From positions 25,267 to 89,266 of the forward strand of contig CAWGUE010000011.1 in assembly GCA_963825595.1 (NCBI GenBank): 64,000 bases of DNA. The letters run 5' to 3'. This DNA comes from an uncultured delta proteobacterium (GTDB lineage: Bacteria > Desulfobacterota > Desulfobacteria > Desulfobacterales > SG8-13). Position numbers and translations under genes: made by a program. Numbering within the stretch: the stretch's first letter is position 1; each line of letters starts with the position of its first letter. Of this stretch, positions 5,626 through 21,887 are shown piece by piece. Below the pieces are notes generated by a model that was given only the letters and a program-made list of their open reading frames with translations, was not told where the DNA came from and did no database searches.

Positions 5626-6309
5626 ATGCCGCTGAAGAAAATCAAGTCGATACGATGGGCTGATCGGATCTGGGCCGCCTTTAGCGCGCTTGTGCTGCTG
5701 CTGGCTGCAGATACGGCATTTGCTGCGCCTTGCGACATCCGACCTGCCGCCCCTGCCATCATCCGCCACGATCTGAGCACCAGTTACTGCGAGCTGTGCA
5801 GTTACGGCTACGTCACCATCGTCATAACCAATCCCTACGAGGGGGCGGATATGACGGGCATGACGGTGGTGGAGAATCTTGTTAATCCTGGACTGACCTT
5901 CCACAACGACCCTTCCGTGCCGGTAACCGTCAGCATCAACGGCGGCCCTGCCTGGCCTACCGGGGACCCGACCGTCATCGGTTCCACATTGACCTGGACA
6001 CCGAGTGAGATACCAGAGCTCGGTGGCCCTCTGGCGTATCGGCAGCCCTTGCCAAGCAGCTACCAGACCATCGCCATCACCTTCCCGGTGACGCGCCCTT
6101 CAGGCAACCAGGAGGGGCTGGTCGGCGCTGACCGCGATATCCAGGCACGACTCACTTACAGCACCGAAGACGCGACCGTTCCGCACGGCCTAATCCGCCA
6201 TGCCCTGGAAATCCCCAACGGTAACCACCTCGGTAGACGAACTGCCGCTGCGCGAACCGTTCCCTGCGGTATTCAAGAGGGGCCGCAATGTGGATGCGGG
6301 GCAGGATGA
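5626..6309 (+). CDS. Giant DUF11-repeat surface protein, N-terminal fragment with Sec signal peptide (frame 1; frame lost near 6195)
   Basis: MPLKKIKSIRWADRIWAAFSALVLLLAADTAFAAP looks like a signal peptide. The sense text stops making domain-like sequence after about 6195 and continues in frame 2 (TVTTSVDELPLREP...). Confidence 0.6.
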   Translation: MPLKKIKSIRWADRIWAAFSALVLLLAADTAFAAPCDIRPAAPAIIRHDLSTSYCELCSYGYVTIVITNPYEGADMTGMTVVENLVNPGLTFHNDPSVPVTVSINGGPAWPTGDPTVIGSTLTWTPSEIPELGGPLAYRQPLPSSYQTIAITFPVTRPSGNQEGLVGADRDIQARLTYSTEDATVPHGLIRHALEIPNGNHLGRRTAAARTVPCGIQEGPQCGCGAG

Positions 6310-7110
6310 AGGAGAGTACCGCCAGACCGTCTATGGCAACGTCAAGGACGATGTGATTTGGCGCATCCAGGTACAAAATGACGGCACGGCCAACCTGCAG
6401 GATCTGCGTCTGGACGACATGATGGAATCCGGTAATATCGACATCAACTACATCTGTCCGTCGATAGCCGCAGCCGACGAAATTGCTGACACCAACAATG
6501 GGTCGGTCCGTCGACCATGGGGTGCCTTTCCGCAGGTAACAGTATCAACAATTTCGATGTAGACTACCCCTTCGGCAATCCCGCAATACCTCTGCATGAC
6601 CCGGTGGATGTGCCCCAGGATGATACCCCGCATTCTCTACCTGGTGGGCAAGATCCCAGACGCATCGCCCAACGGGTCCTGTGAAACCGACCGAGAAGAC
6701 AACACCGTTTCCGACATCCAGTGGGGCTGTCAGTCCGAACCCACCCCGGCCGGCGGCATCGCCGCTACTTCGACAGGGCTAACACCGCCAGTGCCTCGGC
6801 CACCTTAAGCACCTTTCCGACGACCAATTTAACGATCCCACGTCAGAATTATCGGTTCGGAAGTAACCCTGTCACCGGTACCAAGGGCAGGGTCGAATCA
6901 CCATCACCAACAATACCGGCGGTACGGTCACAGAATCTCCAGACTTCAAAATGTATCTTCCTCCGGAGTATGTGATGGATTCCACGTTTACTCCGACGGT
7001 CAGCATGGACCCGGCGTACGGTTCCTACGATGGTATGATCGATCAAATCACATGGACCAATCCAGTTGCCGGTACCTTTCCGAATCAGTCGAGCAACAAT
7101 CCATACCGAT
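6194..7110 (+). pseudogene. Frame-scrambled segment of the giant adhesin gene (about six frame changes)
   Basis: Coherent adhesin-like text can only be followed by switching frames near 6195 (f1>f2), 6520 (f2>f1), 6635 (f1>f2), 6785 (f2>f1), 6888 (f1>f3) and 7105 (f3>f1). Examples are ...PVTGTKG|GRITITNNTGGTV... and ...NNPY|TDFLNNTEPRFTL... Confidence 0.55.
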
Positions 7111-9900
7111 TTTCTGAACAACACGGAGCCGCGCTTCACCTTGACCAGCAGCACCGCGCATCCTTTTTACCCGGCGCCGGATCAGGTCAATATGCTGCGT
7201 CACGGCGACGAACTGGAGATCACTTTCGGCATTATCCTGATCCGGCCGGAATCTTATGACAAAACGGCAGATCTCGATGTCCGCGAGGAAGATCCGAACA
7301 GCACCCCGGCGGACACCGATCCGGATAACGATATTTCACTGTCAAACCAACTGAACGTCACATTCGAAGATTTCTGTAACCCCGGAACGATTATCAATCG
7401 GACTTTCGACACAAACCATTCTCCAAATCCGGAGGACCTGGACATCGATATCATTGGTGATCCTCTGGTTTTCATCCTCACCAATGATCCGAGTCAGCGG
7501 TTGCCGCTGACCGTCGAACTGACCAACAACGGTGGCCATAGCGCGGCCGACTATGTCGCATACGTGAGCTTCGGAACGCACAATGGATGTGGTGGATCGG
7601 CCAACCAATTGCAACCCACCAGTAATCCGCCACCTCATGATGAGTGGCAGTTGCCGGTGCCGATTCCACCAAATGGAGCGGTCTTTGCCTGTACCGGTGG
7701 TGCGATATCAAGAAACGGTGGCCGGGTAAGATACGATTTTCAAGTGATAAAAAGTGCCGATCCAGCCGATATCATCGCCGATGACCTGTCATTCCGAGCC
7801 GATGTGATCGGTGAAATCACACTGAGTAACACAGATAGCCAGGGGAGGACTAACCTCTGGTTCCCAACACCCGTCAATCCGAGGGCAGACACGGGCATCG
7901 ATGATTACAACAATTACACACTCGACGGCCTTCGGGCCCGTGTGGTCGGATTCAACCTTCTCAAATCCCAGCTTGGAAACTGTACAGAAAACAACAATCC
8001 CCCACCACCACTGCCCGATCTGAATGTGCAGATCGGAGAGGAGTGCACCTATCACATCGAAACCGGTGGTTGGTTTGGCTTTAATACGCCGGGTTTTAAC
8101 ATCATCGCTGTGCAGGACATTCAGGTCGTTGACCAACTACCGAATGGCCAGGGCTACCTTTCGTCAACCAATCCGGCTTTGACCAGCACTTCAGAGATCA
8201 AGAGCATCAGTCTCAACCCGCCGGGGCTGTCACCGCTAGATGAAGGGGATTTCGACTGGACCTTTAACCGGGACGAGGTAAACGAGCGCATAAGGACCAT
8301 TGAAGAATGGTTCAAGGTCGACACAACTTCACGCCTGCTCAACGATCCCATCAACACAAGTGCCTTGCCGAACCGGCATGCAGAGCCCAGTACCAACGTG
8401 CTTGTGTCGTATTTTGATGCTGTTTTCCAGTCTGGAACCGATCCGGAAGAAGGTTATCGATTAGGACCCAGTACTGTGGGTTATCCCCGGGTAGAGGTGC
8501 GCCGTGTAGAACTCACTGTTACCGAGCCGCAGATCACAGTCGTCAAGGAAGTCTGTAACGAATCGTTGAACGGCGTGGGGCCCACGTGCAGTCCCTGGGA
8601 ACAGCTGGCCGACGACGGCGATGCCTACGACTCTTACATCTATCGCCTGACGCTGACCAACGAAGCCAGCAGCGGCGGCGTGCAGCGCGCTCCGGCTTAC
8701 GATGTCACCGTGACCGACCGGCTCGATACCAGCGATCTGGCTTATGTTCTGCCCTTTGACGCCGACGGCCTGGACAACGACGGCGATGGCGCCATCGACG
8801 AGGCCGACGAGGGCGTCATCAGCGATAACACTGTCCGGAACGGCACATCGGCAGTAATCACCTTCTCCCACACCCACAGCATCCCATTGCTGCGTATCAA
8901 TGCGGGCGATTCGGTGCAGCTTTACTACCGGGTCGATTTTGACGACGATGCCGCGCCCCTGCAGACCTTCACCAACACGGCCGTCGCCACCTACGACTCC
9001 CTGGAAGGGGCATTCGGCAACCAGACCGCGCCCCAGCTCGCCAACGGTGATTTGCCTGAAATCGGCGGCGCGCGGGTTTATACGTCACCCGCGGACTCGG
9101 CCGATGTGCGGGTCATTCCGGTGCAGACGCAACCCAAGCGGATTACTGATCTTTCCAATACACTCCTCGTTGGAGCGGGGAGCACCCAAGGCGTTTCCAT
9201 CGGCGAAGAGATCGAATACCGGCTCAACACGCTGCTGCCGGTAGCCTTGCTACGAAACTTTGTTATCCGCGATGAACTGCCCGCGGGCCTGCGCTGCAGC
9301 GAAGCCCCGGAGGTCAACCTGAACGCGCCGCCCTATTCGGCGGCAAATTTCGTGCCCGGCGGCACCTTTACCCCCACCTGTACAGACAACCTCGTTGAAT
9401 GGAATTTCGGTCATCAGCGCGTGACCAACGGCAGCATCGGCAACCGCTATGATTTCGAGATCGGGTTTATTGCCCGCGTCGAAAACACCATCGGGACCAA
9501 TGACGCCGATGTGCTTTCCAATGGGGACCCGGCCACCACCGCCACGGCGCGCTATATCGACGAAATCGGCAACCCGGTGGTGCTCACCTTCGGCCAGGTC
9601 GATGTCCTGGTGCGCGAACCGCGTATCGATCTCACCAAAGCCTTTGCCGTTGCCAATGCCGATGCCGGCGATATTCTCACGCTAACCGTAACGGCGACCA
9701 ACAGCGGCACGGCCACCGCATACAACCTGCGGGTGCTCGACGACCTGACCGGCCGCAACCTGACCTTCACGGGCACTGTGGGCGGCACCAACCCGCCGGA
9801 CACCATCGACACCACGACCCTGGGCGCCAACCGGCCGATCTTCAGCTGGAACCCACCTAACGGCATCGCCCCCGGCGAGTGCTATCAGTTTCACCTTTGA
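7066..9900 (+). CDS. Giant DUF11-repeat surface protein, central fragment (frame 1)
   Basis: 944-codon ORF with repeated modules of about 100 aa in the 'conserved repeat domain'/DUF11 style (GDILTLTVTATNSGTATAYNLRVLDDL). It has an acidic loop, DADGLDNDGDGAIDEADEG. It has no signal peptide or convincing start of its own, and it ends at a frame break at about 9877. Confidence 0.6.
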   Translation: MPVPFRISRATIHTDFLNNTEPRFTLTSSTAHPFYPAPDQVNMLRHGDELEITFGIILIRPESYDKTADLDVREEDPNSTPADTDPDNDISLSNQLNVTFEDFCNPGTIINRTFDTNHSPNPEDLDIDIIGDPLVFILTNDPSQRLPLTVELTNNGGHSAADYVAYVSFGTHNGCGGSANQLQPTSNPPPHDEWQLPVPIPPNGAVFACTGGAISRNGGRVRYDFQVIKSADPADIIADDLSFRADVIGEITLSNTDSQGRTNLWFPTPVNPRADTGIDDYNNYTLDGLRARVVGFNLLKSQLGNCTENNNPPPPLPDLNVQIGEECTYHIETGGWFGFNTPGFNIIAVQDIQVVDQLPNGQGYLSSTNPALTSTSEIKSISLNPPGLSPLDEGDFDWTFNRDEVNERIRTIEEWFKVDTTSRLLNDPINTSALPNRHAEPSTNVLVSYFDAVFQSGTDPEEGYRLGPSTVGYPRVEVRRVELTVTEPQITVVKEVCNESLNGVGPTCSPWEQLADDGDAYDSYIYRLTLTNEASSGGVQRAPAYDVTVTDRLDTSDLAYVLPFDADGLDNDGDGAIDEADEGVISDNTVRNGTSAVITFSHTHSIPLLRINAGDSVQLYYRVDFDDDAAPLQTFTNTAVATYDSLEGAFGNQTAPQLANGDLPEIGGARVYTSPADSADVRVIPVQTQPKRITDLSNTLLVGAGSTQGVSIGEEIEYRLNTLLPVALLRNFVIRDELPAGLRCSEAPEVNLNAPPYSAANFVPGGTFTPTCTDNLVEWNFGHQRVTNGSIGNRYDFEIGFIARVENTIGTNDADVLSNGDPATTATARYIDEIGNPVVLTFGQVDVLVREPRIDLTKAFAVANADAGDILTLTVTATNSGTATAYNLRVLDDLTGRNLTFTGTVGGTNPPDTIDTTTLGANRPIFSWNPPNGIAPGECYQFHL

Positions 9901-10036
9901 CGTCCGCGTCGATACCGCTGCGCAGCCCCTGGAAGTCCTGGACAATACCATCCAGGCGGATTGGACGTCACTGCCCGGTCAGACAACCGCGCTCAACAGC
10001 ACGGGGATAATCGGCGCTGACGGCAGCGAGGACGGC

Positions 10037-13000
10037 ATGCGCATCGGCGCCTTGCCCAACGCCGGTGATACGATAAACGACTACGAGACCGAAGCCAGCG
10101 ATTCTGCGACCGTCCCCCCGCTTATCCAGACCAAGACCGATCTGGACCCGGCCGTGATACCCACGATTGGGGCACACAAAAGCTTCCGTATCGACATCCG
10201 TCTGCCTGAAGGCACGACCCAGGACGTCCTTGTCACCGATAGCCTCAACAGCGCCGGTATCAGCTATTTTCTGGAGAACAACCCCGGCTACGACATCACC
10301 TACACCTTCCAGGGTATTGCCACCATCAACGGCGCGGTGCCGAATGAATCGGCCTTTACCGCCTTTCCGGTGGACAACACCAGCGGCAGCGCGGTGTGGA
10401 ATATCGGCACGGTGGTCACCCAGACCGAAAACGACCCGACCCAAAGCGCTATCGCGCCTCTTATCCGCATCGAGTATTTCGCCCGGGTAAACAATGACCT
10501 TGACACCGACAACGGCGATACCTTGCAGAATTCGGTGGTCGTGAATTACACCAACGGCGAGACCGGTGGGCAAGAAGCCTTGACGGATAACACGGCAGCC
10601 GTGACCGTGGTCGAACCTCTGATCAGTGCGACCAAAACGGTTATCAATGTCACGCCCGGCAAACTGCCTGCCGATCCGGCCGCCGGTGGCGATATTCTCG
10701 AATATGCCGTCGCCATTCTCAACAGCGGTACCGCCACCGCCATGGACGTCAATGTGGTGGATACCCTGCCGGCCGGGCTGCCGCTGTACACCAGTTTTAC
10801 CCCCACGGCGAGCATCGGCGGTTCGGCAGTGGTCGGTTTTGTTGCAACGCCGGACAATGCGCCGGCCGGCCCCCTTGTCTGGGGGCATGACAACGGTGAT
10901 GACAGCCTGGATATTCCCGTTGGTCAATCCCTGATCCTGACCTACCGTGTTGTGGTTCAGTCGCTGAGCGGTTCGTTCAGCAACAGTGTTTGGGTGGATT
11001 GGACCTCCCTTGATGGCGACAGCGGATACGAACGAACCGGTGAAGGTTGTCCCAGCTGGACTGCACCCAATGATTATTGCACGGGCGCGGTGGTCGCCAT
11101 CATCCCCACGGTGGATGACACCAGCATTGCCAAGGCCGTCACCGACGATACATATGATGTTCCGCCCCTCAGTACGGCAGTGGATGCCATTGCCCGTGTG
11201 GGCGATACCATCACCTATCGCCTGGCATTGGATCTGCGCGGCGGACTGATAAGCAACGTCCAGGTCCAGGATGTGCTGCCCACAGGCATGGCTTTTGTCG
11301 ATGTGGTCAGCATCAATGGCGATACCACTGCGGATTACACCTCGCCTGCCGGTGGACCGGGCTCCAATTTCGCCTATGCGCCGATACCTGCCGCCAATGT
11401 GCCTGCAGCCGGTCAAACCGGAACCCTGACCTGGACCATCGGCGACGTGGTCAACGATCCCTTCGGTGACCCAACCACCGATATCCTCGAAATCTATTAT
11501 CGCGCGACAATCCTGCCGGATGCCGGTATTGCCCACGTCGCTTCGACCACCCTGACCAATACGGCGACGCTGAGCTACACGGATGCGCCGGTCCTTACCG
11601 GTAATGCCGTTGCCACCGTGTACCAGCCGGTCATCGCTGCTGTCACCAAAACAGAACGCAACGGTCTCACCAGCCCGGCGACGGTGGATGTGGTCAACGA
11701 TACCATGCTTTTCCGGTTGGAGGCGTGCAACACCGGATCGGCGCCGGCCTACAGCATCGAGATGGCCGATCAACTGGCCACCCAATTAGATGAAACCAGC
11801 ATTGCCAATCTGGTGGTGTCTGCCAATGGGGCTGTTCTCAGCGCCGGTAGTGACTTCACTTACACGCCGCCGGCTGTTCGCGGCGGCACCCTGGATTTTC
11901 TGCTGACCACCCCGGTCAACCCCGGCGAGTGCCTCAGCATCGATTACGACATCGGATTTTATACCGATTTTGGTCCCAACCAGACCTGGAACAACAGCGT
12001 CAGCGTTGACAGCTACTGGTCGCTACCCGCCCAGTCCGGCCAGCGCTACGGACCGGTAGGGCCGGCGATCTTCGAAATGACCAATACGACGACCGTCGAA
12101 CCCCTGGAAAAAACCATTGTCACGCCAGTCTCCGCCCTGGCGGCCATCGGTGATCGGATCGTCTACCGGATCACCGTCCCCGTCACGCCGGTAAACGCGG
12201 CCCTGCACGACGTGCGCATCCTCGATGACCTGAGTGCTTCGGCTGCGGACCTAAGTTTCGTCAGTGTTGCAAAGGTCTCCGGCTCACAGCCGTGGACCCC
12301 GGTTAATACCGGCAGCGCCACCAACCTGGTGATCGAAGATACGACCACCGGCATCGACATTCCAGCCGGGGAACAGATCGTCCTCGATATAACGGTGGTG
12401 TTGGAGGATACACCGACGAACGTCAGTGGTCTGCAGTTCAGCAACACCGCCGATTATACCTTCAACACGGTCAACGACGATCCTGCGAGCCAGACGCCCG
12501 GTGGGTCGGACACGACCCCCGATATAACCATCATCGGCCCGGATGCGATCACACTGGATAAAACCGGTCCGGCGACCATGCAGGTGGGTACTCCCGCCGG
12601 CTTCACGCTGAATGTGCACAACCCGAGCACCGGCACTGCCTGGAACCCGACCATTACCGATCGGTTGCCCCATGGTGCGACCGGAGGTATGTGCGCCAGC
12701 GGGCCGAGCAATGTGACCGCGCAAATCATTTTGGCGGACGGGACGCCGGCGCCAGCGCCGCTCGTTGAGAACACCGATTATTCAGTGAGCTTCAGCGGAG
12801 AACCCTCCTGCGAATGGACCATCAGTCTTTTGTCAGCAGCCGGCGGACTGGCGCCCGGTCAGCGCCTGATCGTCGGTTACGACCTCGAACTGGATCTGTC
12901 GACCGAAAATGGAACCGTTCTGACAAATGTCGCCGGGGCCACGCAATGGTTCAGCGCCGATCCCGAAGCAGCGGGTGCCGCGCCGCGCACTTATGACCGC

Positions 13001-16000
13001 GAATTGACCGATGGCACGCCGGGCACCCTCGATCACGAGGATAGCCACACCGTTACTTGCGAAGCGCCGATCCTGGCGTTCATCAAGAGCGTGCAGAACG
13101 TGACCACCGGGCAGAACCCGGGCAGCAACGCCAGCCCCGGAGATACATTGCGCTACACCATCCAGCTCAGCAACTCCGGGCCCGTGGGAATAGCCTCTTT
13201 TTCCATCGTGGACGAGGTCGATCGTTTCAATGCCCCACCGGTTTTCGCCCCCGGCAGCCTGAGTCTGATCAGCGCTCCCGCGGGCGCCGACACCTCTGGC
13301 ACGAATGCCATGGGTGGCATCCACGGCACAGGCCTGCTGAATGTCGCCAATCTTGCCATCGGTGCTCAGGGTGACGCCAACGATACCATCGTGGTCGTAT
13401 TCGAGATCGCCCTGGCGCCGGCGATCACCCATGGGACCGTGGTGCTCAACCAGGCCGAACTCGTCTCCGCGAACCCCGATCGGCTTCAAAGCGATGATCC
13501 CAACGTGTCCGGTGACGCTGATCCCACAGAGACGCTGATCACTTCGGCGCCGGCTTTCGAGGTGCAGAAGATTTCCACCATCATGACCGGGGATCCCAAC
13601 GTTCTGATGGCCGGCGAAACCCTGCGTTACACCATCACCATTAAAAACATCGGTTCAGAGGATGCCGTCAACGCGCGTCTGCGGGACGATACCCCGGCCA
13701 ATACCACTTACGTGGCCAACAGCACGACTCTCAACGGTAATGCCGTACCCGACCCGAGCCCCGGCATCAATCCGTTGCATGCCGGCATCCTGATCAATGC
13801 ACCGGAAAACGTTACTGCCGGATATCTGCGCGCCGATACCGCACCGGGGGCAACCAATGTGGCCACGGTGACCTTCGACGTGGTGGTCGATCCGAGCGCC
13901 ATGAACGGTCTGATCATCGAGAACCAGGGATTCTTGGGCGCCAGTGGCGCGGGAAGCGGCCTGCAGCCCGAGCAGCCGTCAGATGATCCGGCCACGCCGA
14001 TTCCCGACGATCCAACCCGCAACGTGGTCGGCAACCTGCCGTTGCTTTATGCCCACAAGACCGTGCAGATCCAAGAAGATTTCGGCTCAGCGGGGATCGT
14101 CGATCCGGGTGACGTGCTGCGCTACACCATCGTCATCAGCAACTATGGCGCCATCCCGGCGACGGGAGTGACGCTCACTGACACCGTGCCCGCCAACACC
14201 AGCTATGAAGCCAACTCCCTGCGTCTGAACGGTGCGTCAGTAGGTCCCGATGGCGGTGTGTCGCCGCTGATCGCCGGCCTCACGGTGCATTCCTCCGACA
14301 ATCCGGGTGCCGGCATCATTTCTGCCGGTAGCAGCGCTGTGATCACTTTTGACGCCAGAGTCAATGCCGGCGTACCCACCGGCACCCTTATCAGTAACCA
14401 GGGCAGTCTTACTTCCAACGAACTGTCACCAGAACCGACCGATGCGGACGGACTGCCGTCCAACGGCTATCAGCCGACCGTCATCGTCGTCGGTGACGCA
14501 CAGCTGCTCTCAGTGACCAAGGAAGTGGCCATCGTGGGTGGCGGCGCTGCCACAGCGGGCGGCCAGTTGGCCTATACGATTCGGGTGACCAACATTGGCA
14601 CCTTACCCGCCACGCGCGTGATGGTGACCGACGATCTCAGCCCTCCGCTGGGCAATCAGGTGGCCTACATCCCCGGATCGGGCACGCTGAACGGCTCGGC
14701 GTCTGGGGTGACTTACGCAAGTTCGACCCTCACGGCGGACTATGCCGCCCAGTATGGAGATTTGCAACCCGGCAACAGTGCCGTCGTGCGCTTCCGCGTG
14801 CAGATCGACCCCGCACTGGCCATCGGGACAACCATCACCAATACCGGCGTCGTTCGCTGGAACGATCCGGCACAGACCGCATCGGCCAGCGTATCGCTTG
14901 ACCTGGGCGGTATACCGGGCAGCGGCATCTTCAACGGCAACGTTTGGCACGACGCCAACCTGGACAGGATATGCGACACCTCCACCGAGACATTGTTGGA
15001 GGGTTGGTCGGTGGTGCTCTATCGTAACAGTCAGTTGGTCACCACGGTGTTGACCGATGCCAGCGGTGCTTACCGACTCAGCGGCCTTGTCCCCAACGAG
15101 GGGACAACGGAACTTTATGAACTGCGCTTCCTTGCGGCGGGGGCAGGTCCGAACACGGCCTCGCTGGGTATGGCCGACTCGCCGTTCACCAATGGCCCGC
15201 AACGGATCAGCGCCATTACCGTAACGTCGGGCGGCTATCTGCAGAATCTGAATATGCCGCTCTGGCCCAACGGTGCCGCATACAACTCGGTTGCACGGGA
15301 ACCGGTGGCCGGAGTCCGACTCACGCTGCTGAATGCAGCCACCGGCACACCTTTGCCGAGCCAGTGCTTCGACGACCCGATTCAGCAGAATCAGGTCACG
15401 GCTCAGGACGGTTTCTACAAGTTCGACTTGAACTTCAGTGATGGGTCTTGTCCGGCAGGCGGCGCCTATCTCATCGAGGTCACACCACCGGCCACCGGTT
15501 ACATGCCCGCGCCGTCTGAAATCATCTCGCCCGCCAGTGACATGACCACCGCGGCATTTTCCGTTCCAACGTGCCCCGGAAGCGCTAACGATGCGGTGCC
15601 GGCCACTGGCGATTTCTGCGAGGTGACGACCTTTCCTGCAATACCGCCACTGTCGGTCCTGCCGGGTGCTGCCGGTACCACTTATTATCTTCACCTGGTG
15701 CTGAGCAACGGGAACCTGCCGGGTCACAGCCAGGTGTTCAACAACCCCATCCCCATCGATCCGGAACTGGGCGGAGCCGTGGCCATAACCAAGACCTCGT
15801 CCGCGGTCAACGTGGTTCGGGGGGAGTTGGTGCCTTACACGATCACCGTGTCCAATGTGTTCGGCGCGCCGCTTTACGACATCCGTATCGTCGACCGCCT
15901 ACCGGCCGGCTTCAAATACGTTGCCGGTTCGGCTCGCCTGGACGGTCAACCGGCCGAACCGCCCATCAACGGCCGGGAAGTGTTCTGGGATGATCTCGAC

Positions 16001-16768
16001 CTGCAAGTCAACCAGAGAAAAACCATCAAGTTCTTACTGGTGGTGGGTTCCGGCGTCACCGAAGGCGAATACGTCAACCGGGCGCAGGTGATCAACACCG
16101 CCACAGGAGATGCGGTTTCGGGGGAAGCGACCGCCACCGTGCGGGTCGTGCCCGATCCGGATTTCGACTGCACCGATTTCATCGGCAAGGTATTCGACGA
16201 CGGCAATCTGAACGGACGACAGGACACGGGCGAAAAAGGCTTGGTCGGTGTTCGCGTTGTGACGGTGCGCGGTTTGATCGCCACCACAGACGAACACGGA
16301 CGCTTTCACATCACCTGTGCGGCTGTGCCCGACGAGGATCGCGGCAGCAACGTCATCCTGAAGCTGGACGAGCGCAGCCTGCCGACCGGCTATCGCTTGA
16401 CCACCGAAAATCCGCGTGTTCAGCGGGCCACCCGCGGCAAGATGATCCGCTTCAACTTTGGCGCGACCATCCACCGCGTGGTCCGCATCGATATAGCCGG
16501 CGGCGTGTTCGAGCCCGATACCAGCGAACTGCGGCTGCAGTGGAAGCCCCGGCTTGTCCAGTTGCTGGAAGAGCTGAAGAAGGCGCCGTCCCTGCTGCGC
16601 TTGTCATACCTCGCCGATGTCGAACCGAAAGGCCTGGTTAATAAACGTCTGGCTGCATTGAAAAAGGAAATCACCAGGCAGTGGGAACGGTCGGATGGTG
16701 GCTATCGACTGACTGTTGAAACCGAAATTTTCTGGCGACGCGGTGCGCCGCTGACGAGCCGTCGATAA
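10037..16768 (+). CDS. Giant DUF11-repeat surface protein, C-terminal fragment (frame 2, open from about 9863)
   Basis: The frame-2 text upstream of the first ATG continues the domain cut at 9877 (GIAPGE|AISFTFDVRVDTAAQ). It has many DUF11-like modules (GDILEYAVAILNSGTATAMDVNVVDTLP, GDTLRYTIQLSNSG, GETLRYTITIKNIGSEDAVNARLRDDTP, GDVLRYTIVISNYGAIPATGVTLTDTVP). It also has two SdrD-B/Cna-B-like modules (GNVWHDANLDRICD.., IGKVFDDGNLNGRQDTGEKGLVGVRV). Confidence 0.7.
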   Translation: MRIGALPNAGDTINDYETEASDSATVPPLIQTKTDLDPAVIPTIGAHKSFRIDIRLPEGTTQDVLVTDSLNSAGISYFLENNPGYDITYTFQGIATINGAVPNESAFTAFPVDNTSGSAVWNIGTVVTQTENDPTQSAIAPLIRIEYFARVNNDLDTDNGDTLQNSVVVNYTNGETGGQEALTDNTAAVTVVEPLISATKTVINVTPGKLPADPAAGGDILEYAVAILNSGTATAMDVNVVDTLPAGLPLYTSFTPTASIGGSAVVGFVATPDNAPAGPLVWGHDNGDDSLDIPVGQSLILTYRVVVQSLSGSFSNSVWVDWTSLDGDSGYERTGEGCPSWTAPNDYCTGAVVAIIPTVDDTSIAKAVTDDTYDVPPLSTAVDAIARVGDTITYRLALDLRGGLISNVQVQDVLPTGMAFVDVVSINGDTTADYTSPAGGPGSNFAYAPIPAANVPAAGQTGTLTWTIGDVVNDPFGDPTTDILEIYYRATILPDAGIAHVASTTLTNTATLSYTDAPVLTGNAVATVYQPVIAAVTKTERNGLTSPATVDVVNDTMLFRLEACNTGSAPAYSIEMADQLATQLDETSIANLVVSANGAVLSAGSDFTYTPPAVRGGTLDFLLTTPVNPGECLSIDYDIGFYTDFGPNQTWNNSVSVDSYWSLPAQSGQRYGPVGPAIFEMTNTTTVEPLEKTIVTPVSALAAIGDRIVYRITVPVTPVNAALHDVRILDDLSASAADLSFVSVAKVSGSQPWTPVNTGSATNLVIEDTTTGIDIPAGEQIVLDITVVLEDTPTNVSGLQFSNTADYTFNTVNDDPASQTPGGSDTTPDITIIGPDAITLDKTGPATMQVGTPAGFTLNVHNPSTGTAWNPTITDRLPHGATGGMCASGPSNVTAQIILADGTPAPAPLVENTDYSVSFSGEPSCEWTISLLSAAGGLAPGQRLIVGYDLELDLSTENGTVLTNVAGATQWFSADPEAAGAAPRTYDRELTDGTPGTLDHEDSHTVTCEAPILAFIKSVQNVTTGQNPGSNASPGDTLRYTIQLSNSGPVGIASFSIVDEVDRFNAPPVFAPGSLSLISAPAGADTSGTNAMGGIHGTGLLNVANLAIGAQGDANDTIVVVFEIALAPAITHGTVVLNQAELVSANPDRLQSDDPNVSGDADPTETLITSAPAFEVQKISTIMTGDPNVLMAGETLRYTITIKNIGSEDAVNARLRDDTPANTTYVANSTTLNGNAVPDPSPGINPLHAGILINAPENVTAGYLRADTAPGATNVATVTFDVVVDPSAMNGLIIENQGFLGASGAGSGLQPEQPSDDPATPIPDDPTRNVVGNLPLLYAHKTVQIQEDFGSAGIVDPGDVLRYTIVISNYGAIPATGVTLTDTVPANTSYEANSLRLNGASVGPDGGVSPLIAGLTVHSSDNPGAGIISAGSSAVITFDARVNAGVPTGTLISNQGSLTSNELSPEPTDADGLPSNGYQPTVIVVGDAQLLSVTKEVAIVGGGAATAGGQLAYTIRVTNIGTLPATRVMVTDDLSPPLGNQVAYIPGSGTLNGSASGVTYASSTLTADYAAQYGDLQPGNSAVVRFRVQIDPALAIGTTITNTGVVRWNDPAQTASASVSLDLGGIPGSGIFNGNVWHDANLDRICDTSTETLLEGWSVVLYRNSQLVTTVLTDASGAYRLSGLVPNEGTTELYELRFLAAGAGPNTASLGMADSPFTNGPQRISAITVTSGGYLQNLNMPLWPNGAAYNSVAREPVAGVRLTLLNAATGTPLPSQCFDDPIQQNQVTAQDGFYKFDLNFSDGSCPAGGAYLIEVTPPATGYMPAPSEIISPASDMTTAAFSVPTCPGSANDAVPATGDFCEVTTFPAIPPLSVLPGAAGTTYYLHLVLSNGNLPGHSQVFNNPIPIDPELGGAVAITKTSSAVNVVRGELVPYTITVSNVFGAPLYDIRIVDRLPAGFKYVAGSARLDGQPAEPPINGREVFWDDLDLQVNQRKTIKFLLVVGSGVTEGEYVNRAQVINTATGDAVSGEATATVRVVPDPDFDCTDFIGKVFDDGNLNGRQDTGEKGLVGVRVVTVRGLIATTDEHGRFHITCAAVPDEDRGSNVILKLDERSLPTGYRLTTENPRVQRATRGKMIRFNFGATIHRVVRIDIAGGVFEPDTSELRLQWKPRLVQLLEELKKAPSLLRLSYLADVEPKGLVNKRLAALKKEITRQWERSDGGYRLTVETEIFWRRGAPLTSRR

Positions 16769-16772
16769 CGGA

Positions 16773-19700
16773 ATGATGGAAACCATGTCTCTTACCCCAA
16801 TCATGCTGATGCGATTCCTTGTGAAGCGCGGTATCGCCATTTTGTGTTTGTGTGCGGTCACCGCGGCCGTCGCAGAGGCTGATTTTTCAGGGGAAACCGG
16901 AGTGAGGGAGACCGCTTCGCGCGGAGCCACGTCCGAGATTCATCTGCCGGCCGACCAGCCCTTCACGCCTTGGATCCATGACCCGGCCATATTCGAAGAG
17001 AACGAGGGCGATCGCACGGAGATGGGCGAGACCATCGAACAGGATGCCAAAACGATCAAGGTCGATAACCTGGTTCCGTCGATCCATTTCGACCTGGGCG
17101 AAGCGGAGATTCCCGCGGACTACCTTGAGCGTCTTCGCGAGGTCCTCGACAGCATGCGCGATCGCCTCAACGTGCGACTCCACTTTATAGGTCATACCGA
17201 CAATCTGCCGCTCCGCGATGCCTTGCAAAAACGTTATGGCGACAACGTCGGGCTATCGCGCGAGCGGGCGGGCACCACTGCCGAATATTGCCAACGCGCC
17301 CTGAACCTTCCACCCGAAGCCATTTCCTACGAAGGGCGCGGCGACAGCCAGCCCGTTGCCGACAATGCAACCGAGGAAGGGCGTCAGCTCAACCGGCGTG
17401 TGGAAGTGCAGGTCTGGTACGATGAGATCGTTGAAAAGCTTGTCGAAACCGAAGTGATTGTCCCGCGTGAAGTGAGCCGCATCAAGGTCTGCCGGACCGA
17501 GACGGTTTGTAAGTTACGCTACAAGGAAGGCCATTCTCACCGCGCGCGCGTGAAGAATTTAATTACCCCGTTTCATTACGACGAAGGCATGGCGGATGTC
17601 CCCGAAACATTTCTGCGACAGGTCGGACATGCGTTGAACAACCTTCGCGCCAAACAGAATCTGGTCGTCAAATTCATCGCTTACACCGATAACATTCCGC
17701 TGAAAGCACGGGACGAGCGCATCTACGGCGACCACACTGGGCTTTCCAAAGCGGTTGCCCGTCGCATTTCACTTGCCGTTCAGGAAGACATGCAATTGCC
17801 CAATGCCGCCATAGAAAGCGAGGGCAGAGGTGCGTCACAACCGGTGGCCTCCAACGATACGCAGCAGGGCCGGGCGCTGAATCGGCGCGTGGAGGTGGAA
17901 TTCTGGCATGACGACCCCCTGCAGGATCTGCCCGATGAGCCCCAACTATGCCCGGACGCTGCCGGTGCCGAGACTGTCGTGCGAATTTACAACGCATCCT
18001 CGGGGCCTATCGATCCGATCCTGTTCGCGAACGGCCAACCGGTTGTGCCCGCCGGCTACACCGAGCATTTACAGCGCGTCATGGATGAGATCAGCGACAA
18101 GACCCATGTTCGATTGCGATTTGTCGGCTATACCGGCAACAAACGTCTGGATCGACGCACGGCGGCGGTTTACGGAGATGACATTGGCTTGTCCATTGCG
18201 CGCGCACGTCGTGCCATGGGGGCTGTCAGCAAGCAGATGGGGTTGACAGAGGGGCAGGCTGAATTCGACGGGCGCGGCTATGTCCAGTCCGATGACGTGG
18301 TGAACGCCGGTTTCATCGAATCCGATACCTCGCGTGTCCGGGTGCAGGTGGTCTACGATGAGCCTGTTCTGCTCGATGACTACGAGGGGGTCGAGATCAC
18401 ACCCATAACCCGCGAGGTAACCACGGCCGATCCTTTCGGGCTGAATCTCATGCGCATCACGGTCGACGGAAAGCCGCTCGACGATCCGGGTAAATGCAGC
18501 TCGGACGTGCAGCGCTGTACCGACGTGGCCCTTGAAAACGCTCAAATCCAATTCAAATACGACAGCTTGAAACCGGTACCGCGGTTGAACGTGACCGCTT
18601 GGCCGCGCACGATCCGCTACCAGGACAAAGAGGATACGGCATTTGCAGAAAACCTGGTGCGCTTCCGCCTGTATACCAACTACCGCAGCTTCATCGAGCG
18701 GGCGGAAGTTAGAATTTTCAGAGAGAAACAGTCCGTCCGCGATGTGCCCATCGCTGTCATTGCCATGGACGCTGACGGTATGGCCCAATGGCAGGCTGAG
18801 TTCGCGGTCTTCTCGGCGCCGGTGGAAAAGTTGCAATACCTGGTGCGGGTTTACGACAAGCAGGGATATTTTGACGAGACGAAGACCCAACCTCTGTGGG
18901 TGGTCGATCAGATCGACCCCTCGGCTGCCGAAGCGGATCCCGGTCAGGAACTGCTGGTTGGTTATGGCGAAAGTCGTATCGCCAGCCGTAACATCCCGCT
19001 CAGCGGCGGTACGGTGCAGGTATACGGCACCGCGATACCGCAAGGACACCGTGTCTGGCTGGCCGGTTATGCCGTACCCGTGGACAACACAGGCAGTTTC
19101 GTCGCTGAACAAATACTGCCGGGGGGGATTCATACCGTCGAGGTGGGTGTTCTGGACAATTTCGGCAACGGCGAGCTTTTCCTGCGCGACCTTGAACTGA
19201 AAAAAAGCGACTGGTTTACCGTGGGGATCGCCGACCTGACCGTATCCGGAAACAAGACCGATGGGCCGGCCGAATTGCTCGCGCCGGATACTCCCGAATA
19301 CAGTGAAGACATGAGCTTCGCCGGTCGACTGGCGTTTTACACAAATGGCCAATTCAAAAACGGCTGGTCACTGACGGCGAGCGCCGATACGCGCGAAGGA
19401 CCTCTGGACGAGATTTTCACCAACTTCATGGACAAGTCCCCCGAGGCCCTGTTTAGAAGGTTGGACACGGATGTCCACTACCCGACATTCGGCGATGACA
19501 GCACCGTCGTTGAAGATGCGCCGACCAAGGGCAAGTTTTACGTCAAAATGGAAAAAGATGAAACCTACGGGCTCTGGGGCAACTTCATGATCGGATACAA
19601 CGATAATGATCTGGTGCGGGTGGATCGCGGCCTGTACGGTGCCAATCTGCATTACCAGCCCCTTGGCATCACCGGTTTCGGCGAACCACGCCTCCTTTTG

Positions 19701-21887
19701 GACGGGTTTGCGGCGGATCCGGGCACCGTGGCCGGGCGCGATGAGTTTCTCGGAACGGGCGGGTCGCTTTATTTTCTAAAACGGCAGGACGTATTAATGG
19801 GATCCGAGCGGGTACGCATCGAAGTCCGCGACAAGGCTTCCGGGATTGTTCTGGAGGTCAAGAATCTGACGCCAGTCCTCGATTACGACATCGACTATCT
19901 GCAAGGACGAATCCTGCTGGCCCAACCCCTGTCAGCAACGGCAGACGACCGTCTGCTGGTGCGCAGTGACTCGATCAGCGGGAATCCGGCTTTTCTGGTG
20001 GTTCGTTATGAATTCACCCCCGGATTCGAAGAGCCGGACACGCTGGCGGTCGGCGGCAGGGTTCATTACTGGCTCAATGATTACATGAAGGTCGGTGTGA
20101 CCGCCAGCCGAGATGAAGAGGCGGACATCGAAAACAGGTTGGGCGGAGCGGATGTGACCCTGCGCAAGTCCGCGGAGTCTTGGCTCAGGCTGGAAGCCGG
20201 CAACAGCAAAGGGCCGGGAGTGCTATCGACGACCTCCGTTGACGGCGGTTTCGACTTTATTCCCGCAGATTCCTTCGGCGGTGTCGAGGCCGACGCGTCA
20301 GCCTATCGGGTCGATGCCAGTGTCGGCGTCAAGGATTTCTTCGACAATGGGCGCGGCCGTGTCACCCTTTACATGCAGGATCTGGGGGCGGGGTATTCGG
20401 CACCGGGCCTGGCCACTGCCCGGGATCTGACCCAATACGGCGGAACGGCGGCGCTACCTATTACCGACCGTTTAGGTGCTCAATTAAAGGTGGATATGCA
20501 AGTTCAGCGTGAGGGACTCGACACGCAGACCGGCGAGCTGGATCTTGATTACCGGATGGGTGAGCATTGGACTTTGAGTTCCGGTGTGCGTCATGACAAC
20601 CGCGAGGACAACTCGCCGGTCGTGCCGGAAACCCAGGAAGAGGGTGACCGCACGGATGCAGTGGCCCAGCTGCTGTACGATTCCCATAAACGCTGGACAA
20701 CCTATGGTTTCGCCCAGGGAACGATTCAGACCAGCGGCAATCGCGAGGACAACAACCGCATCGGTGCCGGTGGCAGTTGGCGTTTGACCGACCGGTTCAA
20801 CGTGGCCGGTGAGGTTTCCGGTGGAGATCTTGGCCCGGGTGGCCGGCTCGGGACCGAGTACCTGTATTCCGACCGGACCACGCTTTACAACAACTATACC
20901 CTCGAGAACGAACGCACCGATAATGGCCTGCGCGCCAGGAAGGGCAACTTGGCTTCCGGTTTTCGCACGCGATATTCCGACAGCGCCAGCGTCTACCTCG
21001 AAGAGCGCTATGTCCATGGCGATGTGCCCACCGGGCTGACGCATGCCACCGGTGTTGACCTCGCGCCGACCGATCGCCTTAATTTAGGCGCGAATCTCGA
21101 TTTCGGCACTCTCGTGGACCGACAGACCGCGGCCGAATTGGAGAGATTCGCATTGGGTGTGAGCGCCGGTTACGGGTTCGACAAGTTAAAGATCGCCAGC
21201 GCCCTGGAATATCTGGTCGAAAATACCGAGCAGCCGGATACCAGTTTTTCCAAACGCACCACCTGGTTGTTTAAAAACAGCTTAAAGTACCAACTGTCCG
21301 AAGACTGGCGCATCATCGGTAAATTCAATTATGCCGTGAGTGAGAGTTCGCTGGGAGAGTTCTTTGACGGCGATTACACCGAAGCGGTCCTGGGCTACGC
21401 GTATCGCCCCGTCCAGAATGACCGTCTGAATGCGCTCTTCAAATACACGTATTTCTACAATCTGCCGACCGCCGATCAGGTGGCCGGCACGGCTACTGGC
21501 GTCATTCAGCGCAGCCACATCGGTGCGGTGGATGTCATATACGATCTGACACCCCGCTGGACTGTGGGCGGCAAGTACGCCTACCGCCATGGTCAGGTGG
21601 CCCAGGATCGGGAAAATCCGGAGTTCTTCGACAGTCGTGCCCACCTGTATGTGCTCCGTGCGGACTGGCACTTCCTCCACCGCTGGGATGCGCTTTTCGA
21701 GTTGCGCCTACTCGATCTGCCGGATGCACAAGACAGCCGCAGCGGGGCGCTGGTGGGACTATACCGCCACCTTGGCAATCACATGAAGCTGGGGGTCGGC
21801 TATAACTTCAGTGATTTTTCGGATGATCTGACCCAAATGGATTACCGCCACCAGGGGCTGTTCATCAATGTGATCGGGAAGATGTAA
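16773..21887 (+). CDS. Giant outer-membrane protein: signal peptide, three tandem OmpA_C-like peptidoglycan-binding modules, long beta-rich C-terminal region (putative barrel)
   Basis: Three OmpA-type units are present: HFIGHTDNLPL..GLSRERA..GRGDSQPVADN..NRRVEVQVW; KFIAYTDNIPL..GLSKAVA..GRGASQPVASN..NRRVEVEFW; RFVGYTGNKRL..GLSIARA..GRGYVQSDD. The C-terminal ~700 aa has an alternating aromatic/Gly strand pattern (KLGVGYNFSDF, RWTVGGKYAYRHGQ). It starts 4 nt after the adhesin stop. Confidence 0.8.
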   Translation: MMETMSLTPIMLMRFLVKRGIAILCLCAVTAAVAEADFSGETGVRETASRGATSEIHLPADQPFTPWIHDPAIFEENEGDRTEMGETIEQDAKTIKVDNLVPSIHFDLGEAEIPADYLERLREVLDSMRDRLNVRLHFIGHTDNLPLRDALQKRYGDNVGLSRERAGTTAEYCQRALNLPPEAISYEGRGDSQPVADNATEEGRQLNRRVEVQVWYDEIVEKLVETEVIVPREVSRIKVCRTETVCKLRYKEGHSHRARVKNLITPFHYDEGMADVPETFLRQVGHALNNLRAKQNLVVKFIAYTDNIPLKARDERIYGDHTGLSKAVARRISLAVQEDMQLPNAAIESEGRGASQPVASNDTQQGRALNRRVEVEFWHDDPLQDLPDEPQLCPDAAGAETVVRIYNASSGPIDPILFANGQPVVPAGYTEHLQRVMDEISDKTHVRLRFVGYTGNKRLDRRTAAVYGDDIGLSIARARRAMGAVSKQMGLTEGQAEFDGRGYVQSDDVVNAGFIESDTSRVRVQVVYDEPVLLDDYEGVEITPITREVTTADPFGLNLMRITVDGKPLDDPGKCSSDVQRCTDVALENAQIQFKYDSLKPVPRLNVTAWPRTIRYQDKEDTAFAENLVRFRLYTNYRSFIERAEVRIFREKQSVRDVPIAVIAMDADGMAQWQAEFAVFSAPVEKLQYLVRVYDKQGYFDETKTQPLWVVDQIDPSAAEADPGQELLVGYGESRIASRNIPLSGGTVQVYGTAIPQGHRVWLAGYAVPVDNTGSFVAEQILPGGIHTVEVGVLDNFGNGELFLRDLELKKSDWFTVGIADLTVSGNKTDGPAELLAPDTPEYSEDMSFAGRLAFYTNGQFKNGWSLTASADTREGPLDEIFTNFMDKSPEALFRRLDTDVHYPTFGDDSTVVEDAPTKGKFYVKMEKDETYGLWGNFMIGYNDNDLVRVDRGLYGANLHYQPLGITGFGEPRLLLDGFAADPGTVAGRDEFLGTGGSLYFLKRQDVLMGSERVRIEVRDKASGIVLEVKNLTPVLDYDIDYLQGRILLAQPLSATADDRLLVRSDSISGNPAFLVVRYEFTPGFEEPDTLAVGGRVHYWLNDYMKVGVTASRDEEADIENRLGGADVTLRKSAESWLRLEAGNSKGPGVLSTTSVDGGFDFIPADSFGGVEADASAYRVDASVGVKDFFDNGRGRVTLYMQDLGAGYSAPGLATARDLTQYGGTAALPITDRLGAQLKVDMQVQREGLDTQTGELDLDYRMGEHWTLSSGVRHDNREDNSPVVPETQEEGDRTDAVAQLLYDSHKRWTTYGFAQGTIQTSGNREDNNRIGAGGSWRLTDRFNVAGEVSGGDLGPGGRLGTEYLYSDRTTLYNNYTLENERTDNGLRARKGNLASGFRTRYSDSASVYLEERYVHGDVPTGLTHATGVDLAPTDRLNLGANLDFGTLVDRQTAAELERFALGVSAGYGFDKLKIASALEYLVENTEQPDTSFSKRTTWLFKNSLKYQLSEDWRIIGKFNYAVSESSLGEFFDGDYTEAVLGYAYRPVQNDRLNALFKYTYFYNLPTADQVAGTATGVIQRSHIGAVDVIYDLTPRWTVGGKYAYRHGQVAQDRENPEFFDSRAHLYVLRADWHFLHRWDALFELRLLDLPDAQDSRSGALVGLYRHLGNHMKLGVGYNFSDFSDDLTQMDYRHQGLFINVIGKM

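What the first reader, a model, noticed from the sequence alone, without database searches (positions are those of the whole stretch)
6194..9900. Non-random cluster of frame changes in the giant adhesin gene (six within ~0.9 kb, one more at ~9877)
Seen:
- Coherent adhesin text can only be followed by switching frames near 6195, 6520, 6635, 6785, 6888, 7105 and 9877. An example at 9877: ggc gag t gct atc reads GIAPGE|AISFTFDVRVD after skipping one nt.
- The first six alternate so that frame 1 is repeatedly lost and regained. The last one is uncompensated, and the remaining 6.9 kb stays in frame 2.
- Several sit at short runs (gggg at ~6520, cccc at ~6635, ggg at ~6888, tttt at ~7105).
- More than 45 other genes in the window are intact, so a uniform sequencing error rate does not explain this.

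Options:
- (i) A recently inactivated adhesin pseudogene next to an intact motor.
- (ii) A consensus artefact across a strain-variable segment, for example in a metagenome-assembled genome.
- (iii) Indel-based switching of expression.

Positions are by-eye estimates, within about 10 nt.
Basis: seen in the sequence. Interest (0 to 1): 0.6.

Follow-up and report, generated by a model that had tools for sequence, protein, structure and literature searches.

The report
Adhesin frameshift cluster, probably assembly error
A giant surface-adhesin gene in this uncultured sulfate-reducer genome really is chopped by a dense cluster of tiny insertions and deletions, but they most likely come from a poor long-read metagenome consensus over a strain-variable stretch, not from biology.

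Summary
The DUF11/CLIPPER adhesin gene (5626-16768, + strand) changes frame at about 6178, 6219, 6500, 6634, 6788, 6892, 7104 and 9868-9877. It also holds compensated pairs at about 6834/6857 and 7576/7616. That is 12-14 small indels, all in the first 4.25 kb and none in the last 6.9 kb.

Read through, the gene gives 3,717 aa with no in-frame stop and dN/dS of 0.17-0.48. Orthologues in two relatives are intact (3,745 and 3,749 aa).

The sites are not conserved and have no slippery motif or repeat tract. The density is too uneven for neutral decay.

The genome looks like a long-read MAG (36 contigs, N50 203 kb). My scan found about 150 frameshift candidates:
- They are clustered and enriched 3.3-fold near contig ends.
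- They break single-copy aroQ and alr.
- The bin also holds overlapping strain-variant contig ends.

Flye-style assemblies of close relatives show their own, different indels in the same N-terminal part (18 in one).

Verdict: a consensus artefact in a strain-variable, mosaic segment (about 0.78).

The parts
5626..16768 (+). Giant secreted DUF11/CLIPPER-repeat adhesin gene, frame-broken. Read through, it gives 3,717 aa with no in-frame stop.
   Evidence: Pfam DUF11, DUF7619, DUF7927 and SdrD_B hits. Intact orthologues of 3,745 and 3,749 aa.
6178..6220 (+). Two frame changes (frame 1 to 3, then 3 to 2) flanking 13 codons that match the orthologue only in frame 3.
6498..6502 (+). Frame change 2 to 1. 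One G004 haplotype contig has its own indel at the same alignment columns.
6624..6635 (+). Frame change 1 to 2.
6786..6790 (+). Frame change 2 to 1, at a site where allele types differ in length.
6834..6857 (+). Compensated pair of 1-nt length differences. About 8 codons between them are out of register.
6892..6894 (+). Frame change 1 to 3.
7103..7105 (+). Frame change 3 to 1, at the edge of a 36-nt length difference between allele types.
7576..7617 (+). Compensated pair hidden inside the open 953-aa ORF. Thirteen codons match orthologues only in frame 2.
   Evidence: and comparison of the translations
9868..9878 (+). Last, uncompensated frame change, 1 to 2. The 2,296 codons downstream are clean.
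16773..21887 (+). Intact 1,704-aa OmpA-domain outer-membrane partner gene, 4 nt downstream. It is syntenic in all relatives.

Best explanation
The indels are most likely errors of a long-read metagenome consensus, not mutations carried by a cell. The gene is a normal, functional giant adhesin.

Its N-terminal 1,400 or so residues are the strain-variable, recombining part, while the C-terminal 2,300 or so are conserved. Several strains or allele types live together in such samples. Long reads anchored in the conserved flanks are then piled onto one retained path across the divergent part. The polished consensus becomes a noisy blend with small insertions and deletions, so gene calling breaks there and nowhere else nearby.

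Shown here:
- the frame changes exist;
- orthologues are intact;
- the sites are not conserved;
- the genome carries frameshifts in single-copy housekeeping genes;
- the frameshift candidates are clustered and enriched at contig ends;
- strain variants are present in the same bin;
- related Flye-style assemblies are broken in the same region at different sites.

Inferred, not shown:
- that this genome was assembled from long reads;
- that mixed-strain read pile-ups caused this particular cluster.
For: 1. Intact orthologues exist. G002 has 3,745 aa and G018 has 3,749 aa, with the same neighbours (sat/cysC upstream, OmpA gene downstream).

2. The read-through of the window gene has no in-frame stop over 3,717 aa. 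dN/dS in the corrected frames is 0.17-0.48.

3. All 12-14 events lie in the first 4.25 kb and none in the last 6.9 kb.

4. G000 has 36 contigs, N50 203 kb and a smallest contig of 33 kb.

5. My frame-tracking scan found 153 strict frameshift candidates (2.9 per 100 kb).
- They are clustered: 19 of 121 neighbour distances are under 1 kb, against about 3% expected.
- Seven or eight of 10 sampled junctions lie inside one Pfam domain or one gene. These include leuA, aroQ, alr, a PALP enzyme and an MFS transporter.
- aroQ and alr are single-copy in the bin.

6. Candidates are enriched 3.3-fold within 2 kb of contig ends (14 found, 4.2 expected, p about 9e-5). Ordinary gene boundaries are not enriched.

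7. The bin holds overlapping strain-variant contig ends, for example C8/C32 with 13 kb at 97.2% identity. There, 1-2-nt non-homopolymer indels sit in the most substitution-rich patches.

8. Close relatives from ENA assemblies with Flye-style contig names are broken too.
- L017 has 18 frame changes, all within residues 1-1427. It has none in the last 2,263 residues, which are 97% identical to intact G002.
- L017's sites differ from the window's.
- L017 and a second allele type (L018) come from the same sample.

9. The two G004 haplotype contigs are 97.8% identical and differ by small indels in this same region. One reads through this N-terminal region in a single frame and the other is broken.

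10. The affected part is the divergent, mosaic part of the gene.

11. Nanopore consensus indels that cause frameshifts, especially in bins below 40-fold coverage, are documented (PMC9262707).
Against: - Nothing here shows directly that the indels lack read support.
- The sequencing technology of G000 is inferred from contig statistics and from relatives. It is not known.
- The indels are not at homopolymers, which is the classic Nanopore error type.
- The other 52 kb or so of coding sequence in the window shows no detectable frameshift, so a special local cause is needed.
- Part of the cluster sits beside an apparent recombination breakpoint at about 6940. That breakpoint could be natural.
- My genome-wide scan has some false positives, about 2-3 in 10.
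Confidence: 0.78

Rival explanations
1. A real, recently inactivated adhesin gene. The indels exist in the DNA of the dominant strain. One route would be import of a decayed N-terminal segment by recombination. Another would be error-prone repair around a recombination tract.
For: - Part of the cluster lies beside a switch from G002-like to G004-like sequence at about 6940.
- dN/dS is higher inside the cluster (0.32) than in the 180 codons before it (0.16).
- Surface adhesins are often lost in nature.
- Earlier notes on this genome describe decay around mobile elements (unchecked).
Against: - Twelve to fourteen lesions lie in 4.25 kb and none in 6.9 kb of the same gene.
- There is no in-frame stop in the read-through.
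- dN/dS is still well below 1.
- The same assembly breaks single-copy aroQ and alr, which cannot plausibly be real losses.
- Related long-read-style assemblies are broken in the same region at other sites.
Confidence: 0.13
2. Indel-based phase variation: a contingency locus that switches adhesin expression on and off by slipped-strand mispairing.
For: - The gene is a surface adhesin, the usual class for such switches.
- Two sites (about 6500 and about 6790) are also indel-variable between the two G004 haplotype contigs.
Against: - No homopolymer of 6 or more and no repeat tract lies at any site.
- Nine net frame changes are 'off' at once, and one reversion could not restore expression.
- The sites are not shared with L017, L019 or other relatives.
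Confidence: 0.03
3. Programmed recoding (ribosomal frameshifting or transcriptional slippage), or a natural split into several functional genes.
For: L020 has a one-base length difference within 7 nt of the window's site at about 9877.
Against: - Intact orthologues read the whole gene in one frame.
- Site positions differ between assemblies.
- About 0.04 chance coincidences within ±10 nt are expected for L020 alone, and about 1.3 pairs within 4 residues for the window against L017 (my arithmetic).
- No slippery heptamer is present.
- The downstream pieces lack signal peptides and plausible start codons.
Confidence: 0.01

Closest known systems
Residual indel errors in long-read (Nanopore) metagenome-assembled genomes that truncate gene calls (Sereika et al. 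2022, PMC9262707; IDEEL-type truncated proteins; proovframe preprint 10.1101/2021.08.23.457338)
   Same: Small indels break genes that are intact in relatives. They occur genome-wide, including in housekeeping genes. They are worse where the consensus is poor (contig ends, strain-variable stretches). The corrected frames are otherwise intact.
   Different: The classic error sits in homopolymers, and these sites do not. The local density, about 10 in 0.9 kb, is two orders of magnitude above this genome's average. That points to mixed-haplotype polishing rather than plain base-calling error. The technology used is inferred, not known.
Phase-variable adhesins switched by slipped-strand mispairing at simple repeats (for example Neisseria opa pentamer repeats, Haemophilus and Bordetella poly-nucleotide tracts; from my own knowledge)
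   Same: A surface adhesin whose reading frame is interrupted by small indels.
   Different: No repeat tract or long homopolymer is present. There are many broken sites at once, and the sites are not conserved.
Neutral pseudogene decay in bacteria
   Same: Frameshifts in a non-essential surface-protein gene next to intact neighbours.
   Different: The lesions are confined to 38% of the gene. There are no nonsense codons, and dN/dS is 0.17-0.48 in the corrected frames.
Giant DUF11/CLIPPER, SdrD-B-like, isopeptide-type repeat adhesins of Desulfobacterales and other Proteobacteria
   Same: Same domain families and the same length of about 3,700 aa. Same pairing with a large OmpA-domain outer-membrane protein.
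   Different: Nothing apart from the frame breaks. The N-terminal 1,400 or so residues have almost no Pfam match and are the variable part.

Membership tests
Long-read consensus (assembly) indel artefact | Assembly made from error-prone long reads | tested here: inconclusive
   36 contigs, N50 203 kb, none under 33 kb. Repeats of 1-13 kb are resolved inside contigs. The closest relatives sit on contigs with Flye-style 'contig_N' names. No metadata on this genome was available.
Long-read consensus (assembly) indel artefact | Frameshifts also hit single-copy housekeeping genes elsewhere in the same assembly | tested here: met
   leuA, aroQ, alr, a PALP enzyme and an MFS transporter each have one Pfam domain or gene running across the junction. 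aroQ and alr are single-copy in the bin.
Long-read consensus (assembly) indel artefact | Error density follows assembly quality (contig ends, variable patches) rather than gene function | tested here: met
   3.3-fold enrichment within 2 kb of contig ends, with no enrichment for ordinary gene boundaries. Candidates are clustered. Indels sit in the most substitution-rich patches of overlapping strain contigs.
Long-read consensus (assembly) indel artefact | Indels lack support in raw reads or in independent resequencing | not testable with these tools
No other record holds the same proteins.
Phase-variable contingency locus (slipped-strand mispairing) | Simple-sequence repeat or long homopolymer at the switch site | tested here: not met
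   The longest run within 8 nt of a site is 2-5 bases. No repeat tract lies at any site.
Programmed ribosomal frameshift | Frameshift site conserved in orthologues, with a slippery motif | tested here: not met
   G002 and G018 read the gene in one frame. Broken relatives are broken at other sites.
Decaying pseudogene | Lesions spread over the gene, nonsense codons present, dN/dS near 1 | tested here: not met
   All events lie in the first 38% of the gene. There are no in-frame stops in the read-through. dN/dS is 0.17-0.48.
DUF11/CLIPPER giant repeat adhesin | DUF11 repeats with SdrD_B, DUF7619 and DUF7927 domains, an N-terminal signal peptide, about 3,700 aa | tested here: met
   Pfam hits. 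Full-length homologues of 3,690-3,753 aa. A signal-peptide-like N-terminus is seen (by eye).

The most novel reading that the evidence does not exclude
The indels are real in at least part of the population. On this reading, the N-terminal 1,400 or so residues of this adhesin are a recombination hot zone where allele blocks from different species-level lineages are shuffled. The window is G002-like for residues 1-440, G004-like for 445-1000, and G002-like again after that. Error-prone repair of those exchanges would leave dense local indels, so that many cells carry dead or frame-scrambled adhesin alleles.
Probability: 0.07. Interest if true: 0.5.

Novelty: not a real feature. Interest (0 to 1): 0.1.

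Why it matters
If the artefact reading is right, the practical lesson concerns data quality. This genome, and related long-read MAGs that serve as species representatives, carry about 150 or more frame-breaking indels. These concentrate in strain-variable genes and at contig ends. 'Pseudogenes', 'split genes' and 'switches' seen in them, including mutL, aroQ and alr here, should not be read as biology without read support.

One piece of real biology remains. This adhesin's N-terminal third is highly variable and mosaic between lineages, while the C-terminal two thirds are conserved.

Tried and rejected
- **Independent assemblies of the same strain.** Exact look-ups of the C-terminal ORF, the OmpA partner and sat/cysC found no other record. 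A search with the 227-aa first fragment found only the window's own product, plus other fragmented N-terminal pieces from other lineages.
- **Plain tblastn.** It bridged the out-of-frame stretches in one HSP and was useless for placing the shifts. I replaced it with my own frameshift-aware alignment.
- **Loci from relatives' genomes.** I imported them through alignments and translations instead.
- **Silent-cassette antigenic variation.** There is no second copy or partial copy of the N-terminal 4.4 kb anywhere in the bin. Rejected.
- **Conserved frameshift at about 9877.** L020 has a length difference 7 nt away, but G002, G004, G018 and G029 read through, and L017 and L019 break elsewhere. Taken as coincidence.
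- **Homopolymer slippage.** Not supported.
- **Indels at sites where allele types differ in length.** Four of 10 coincide within 10 nt, against about 15% expected (my arithmetic). This is marginal and does not separate the hypotheses.
Full report
**What is there**

On the + strand a single very large gene starts at 5626 and ends at the stop at 16766-16768. Its N-terminus (MPLKKIKSIRW...AFA) looks like a signal peptide.
- sat/cysC (2930-4645) lies upstream. An intact 1,704-aa OmpA-domain gene (16773-21887) follows 4 nt downstream.
- Stop-to-stop ORFs break the gene into eight overlapping pieces in different frames.
- Pfam finds DUF11/CLIPPER repeats, DUF7619, DUF7927 and SdrD_B in the C-terminal piece, and almost nothing in the N-terminal third.
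- Homologues are giant 'DUF11 / SdrD B-like / isopeptide-forming' proteins of about 3,700-3,750 aa, mostly from Desulfobacterales.

**Checking the observation**

Same-genus relative G002 and same-family relative G018 carry intact orthologues of 3,745 and 3,749 aa with the same gene neighbours. I aligned the G002 protein to the window DNA with my own frameshift-aware dynamic programme. I also aligned the DNA of five orthologues.

The frame path is:
- 1 (5626-6177)
- 3 (6180-6218)
- 2 (6221-6499)
- 1 (6502-6633)
- 2 (6635-6787)
- 1 (6790-6891)
- 3 (6894-7103)
- 1 (7105-9876)
- 2 (9878-16765)

- The change at '~6195' is really two changes.
- Compensated pairs at about 6834/6857 and about 7576/7616 were missed, and perhaps one at 6935/6955. 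The second pair is hidden inside the 953-aa ORF, which looks intact.
- In total there are 12-14 small length differences. All lie in the first 4.25 kb, and none is detectable in the last 2,299 aligned residues (89% identical to G002).
- No site has a homopolymer of 6 or more or a repeat tract. Runs near the sites are 2-5 bases long, close to the gene's background.
- My frame-tracking scan finds no other candidate in the window.

**Is the gene otherwise alive?**

- Reading through the breaks gives 3,717 residues with no in-frame stop.
- Against G002, dN/dS in the corrected frames inside the cluster is 0.17-0.48 (0.32 overall). It is 0.16 in the 180 codons before the cluster, at dS of about 0.5.
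- The orthologue frame was therefore kept by selection for nearly all of the divergence. The indels are either very recent or not real.
- An old pseudogene is excluded. A neutral decay process cannot place every lesion in 38% of the gene.

**Are the sites programmed or switch-like?**

- Intact orthologues read straight through.
- Other broken relatives are broken at different residues.
- One near-coincidence exists: L020 has a length difference 7 nt from the window's site at about 9877. That is within what chance allows given the number of events compared.
- No repeat tract exists.
- No silent copy of the N-terminal region exists in the bin.

Programmed frameshifting, slipped-strand phase variation and cassette-type variation are all unsupported.

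**What kind of assembly is this?**

The window is C11:25267-89266 of a 5.27-Mb bin. The bin is 95% complete with 2.3% contamination. It has 36 contigs, N50 203 kb, and no contig under 33 kb. Repeats of 1-13 kb are resolved inside contigs. That profile is typical of long-read assembly, though I have no metadata to confirm it.

I trained a dicodon model on the genome's long ORFs and ran a seven-state frame-tracking Viterbi over all contigs.
- It recovers the known adhesin shifts.
- Genome-wide it gives 153 strict frameshift candidates (2.9 per 100 kb).
- These are clustered: 19 of 121 neighbour distances are below 1 kb, against about 3% expected. There are 31 clusters of two or more events and nine of three or more.
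- Of 10 randomly sampled junctions scanned against Pfam, seven or eight lie inside one domain or one gene. These include leuA, aroQ, alr, a PALP (cysteine-synthase-like) enzyme, an amidohydrolase and an MFS transporter.
- aroQ and alr are single-copy in the bin. A free-living sulfate reducer that had lost both is implausible, so the assembly contains indel errors.
- Candidates are 3.3-fold enriched within 2 kb of contig ends (14 against 4.2 expected, p about 9e-5). Ordinary gene boundaries are not enriched.
- Earlier notes from this scan on the same genome describe a mutL split by one base, three frameshifts within 215 nt in mmsA, and a triply frameshifted FG-GAP gene. I treat these as leads only. 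They agree with my scan.

**Why here?**

The bin holds strain variants.
- Contig ends overlap as diverged copies: C8/C32 over 13 kb at 97.2%, and C1/C35 over 5.4 kb at 98.8%.
- In C8/C32, substitution density runs from 2 to 123 per kb. The 1-2-nt, non-homopolymer gaps sit mostly in the patches richest in substitutions.

The adhesin's N-terminal part is the variable part.
- Window-to-G002 identity is 50-82% over residues 1-1391 and 89% afterwards.
- The window is a block mosaic: G002-like for residues 1-440, G004-like for 445-1000, and mostly G002-like for 1000-2150.

The locus misbehaves in other assemblies too.
- G004 carries it on two haplotype contigs that are 97.8% identical. One has small indels at the window-equivalent of about 6498-6517 and about 6801 and is broken. 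The other is open through this region but is cut by the contig end.
- ENA contigs with Flye-style names are fragmented: L017 (78+138+460+249+80+2374 aa), L018 (1149+2530), L019 (526+1034+2256) and L020 (1080+233+2317).
- L017 is the clearest case. It has 18 frame changes, all within residues 1-1427, and none in the last 2,263 residues, which are 97% identical to intact G002. Its indels sit in patches where it also differs most from G002.
- L017 (G002-like) and L018 (G004-like) come from the same sample, so allele types do live together.
- More fragmented N-terminal pieces on long ENA contigs turned up.

**Mechanism proposed (inferred)**

Long reads from co-existing strains are anchored by the conserved flanks and C-terminal region. 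They are piled onto one retained path across the divergent N-terminal part. Gappy alignments there give a polished consensus that is a blend with spurious small indels. Conserved parts get at most base-level mixing and stay in frame.

This accounts for the sharp regional restriction and the non-homopolymer indels. It also accounts for the compensated pairs and the fine-scale patchwork of allele states around 9.8-9.95 kb. Finally, it explains why the same region breaks at different sites in different assemblies. Residual consensus indels that cause frameshifts in Nanopore MAGs, especially below 40-fold coverage, are documented (PMC9262707).

**What remains open**

- No independent assembly of the same strain is on record.
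- A real, localised inactivation cannot be excluded. An imported decayed segment or error-prone repair beside the breakpoint at about 6940 are examples. I give this about 0.13.
- The slightly raised dN/dS inside the cluster fits both noise and brief decay.

**Verdict**

Confidence is about 0.78. Interest is low. The useful by-product is a warning about frameshift 'pseudogenes' in this genome and its long-read relatives.

Noticed in passing
window 5626-16768: The adhesin is a block mosaic relative to two other species of the genus. Residues 1-440 are G002-like, 445-1000 are G004-like, about 1000-2150 are G002-like, and about 2160-2300 are G004-like. Only about 12% of informative sites are private to the window. 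This is either natural recombination between lineages or partly a consensus blend.
   Followed up: partly
window 7576-7617: A compensated frameshift pair is hidden inside the 953-aa ORF, which looks intact. Thirteen codons (window frame 1 reads THNGCGGSANQLQ) match orthologues only in frame 2.
   Followed up: yes
G000 contigs C8:413811-426862 vs C32:1-13057, and C1:143425-148815 vs C35:41717-47107: Contig ends of the same bin overlap as diverged copies (97.2% over 13 kb, 98.8% over 5.4 kb). Substitution density is very uneven, from 2 to 123 per kb. This means co-binned strain variants.
   Followed up: partly
G000 C11:5862-6304 (about 19 kb upstream of the window), C29:72607-73678, C24:51823-52591, C30:1035-1870: aroQ, alr, leuA and a PALP (cysteine-synthase-like) gene are each split by a single frame change. 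aroQ and alr have no second copy in the bin.
   Followed up: partly
L013 (G004:C2) and L014 (G004:C23): The G004 bin carries the adhesin locus twice, on two contigs that are 97.8% identical over the first 1.85 kb. One contig ends inside the gene. The other has small indels at the window-equivalent of 6498-6517 and 6801.
   Followed up: partly
L020:7003-7012 vs window 9868-9877: An assembly from another sample (ctg94540l, 66% aa identity) has a one-base length difference within 7 nt of the window's last frame change. I judged it a coincidence but did not test it further.
   Followed up: partly
window 8500-16500: The adhesin gene has 59-64% G+C against 52% for the whole genome. This could reflect Gly/Ala/Pro/Thr-rich composition or a foreign origin. 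Not examined.
   Followed up: no
L017:14142-19245 and L018:14650-19763: In the related Flye-style contigs the downstream OmpA-domain gene is also split (1051+629 aa and 97+1587 aa). It is intact in the window.
   Followed up: no
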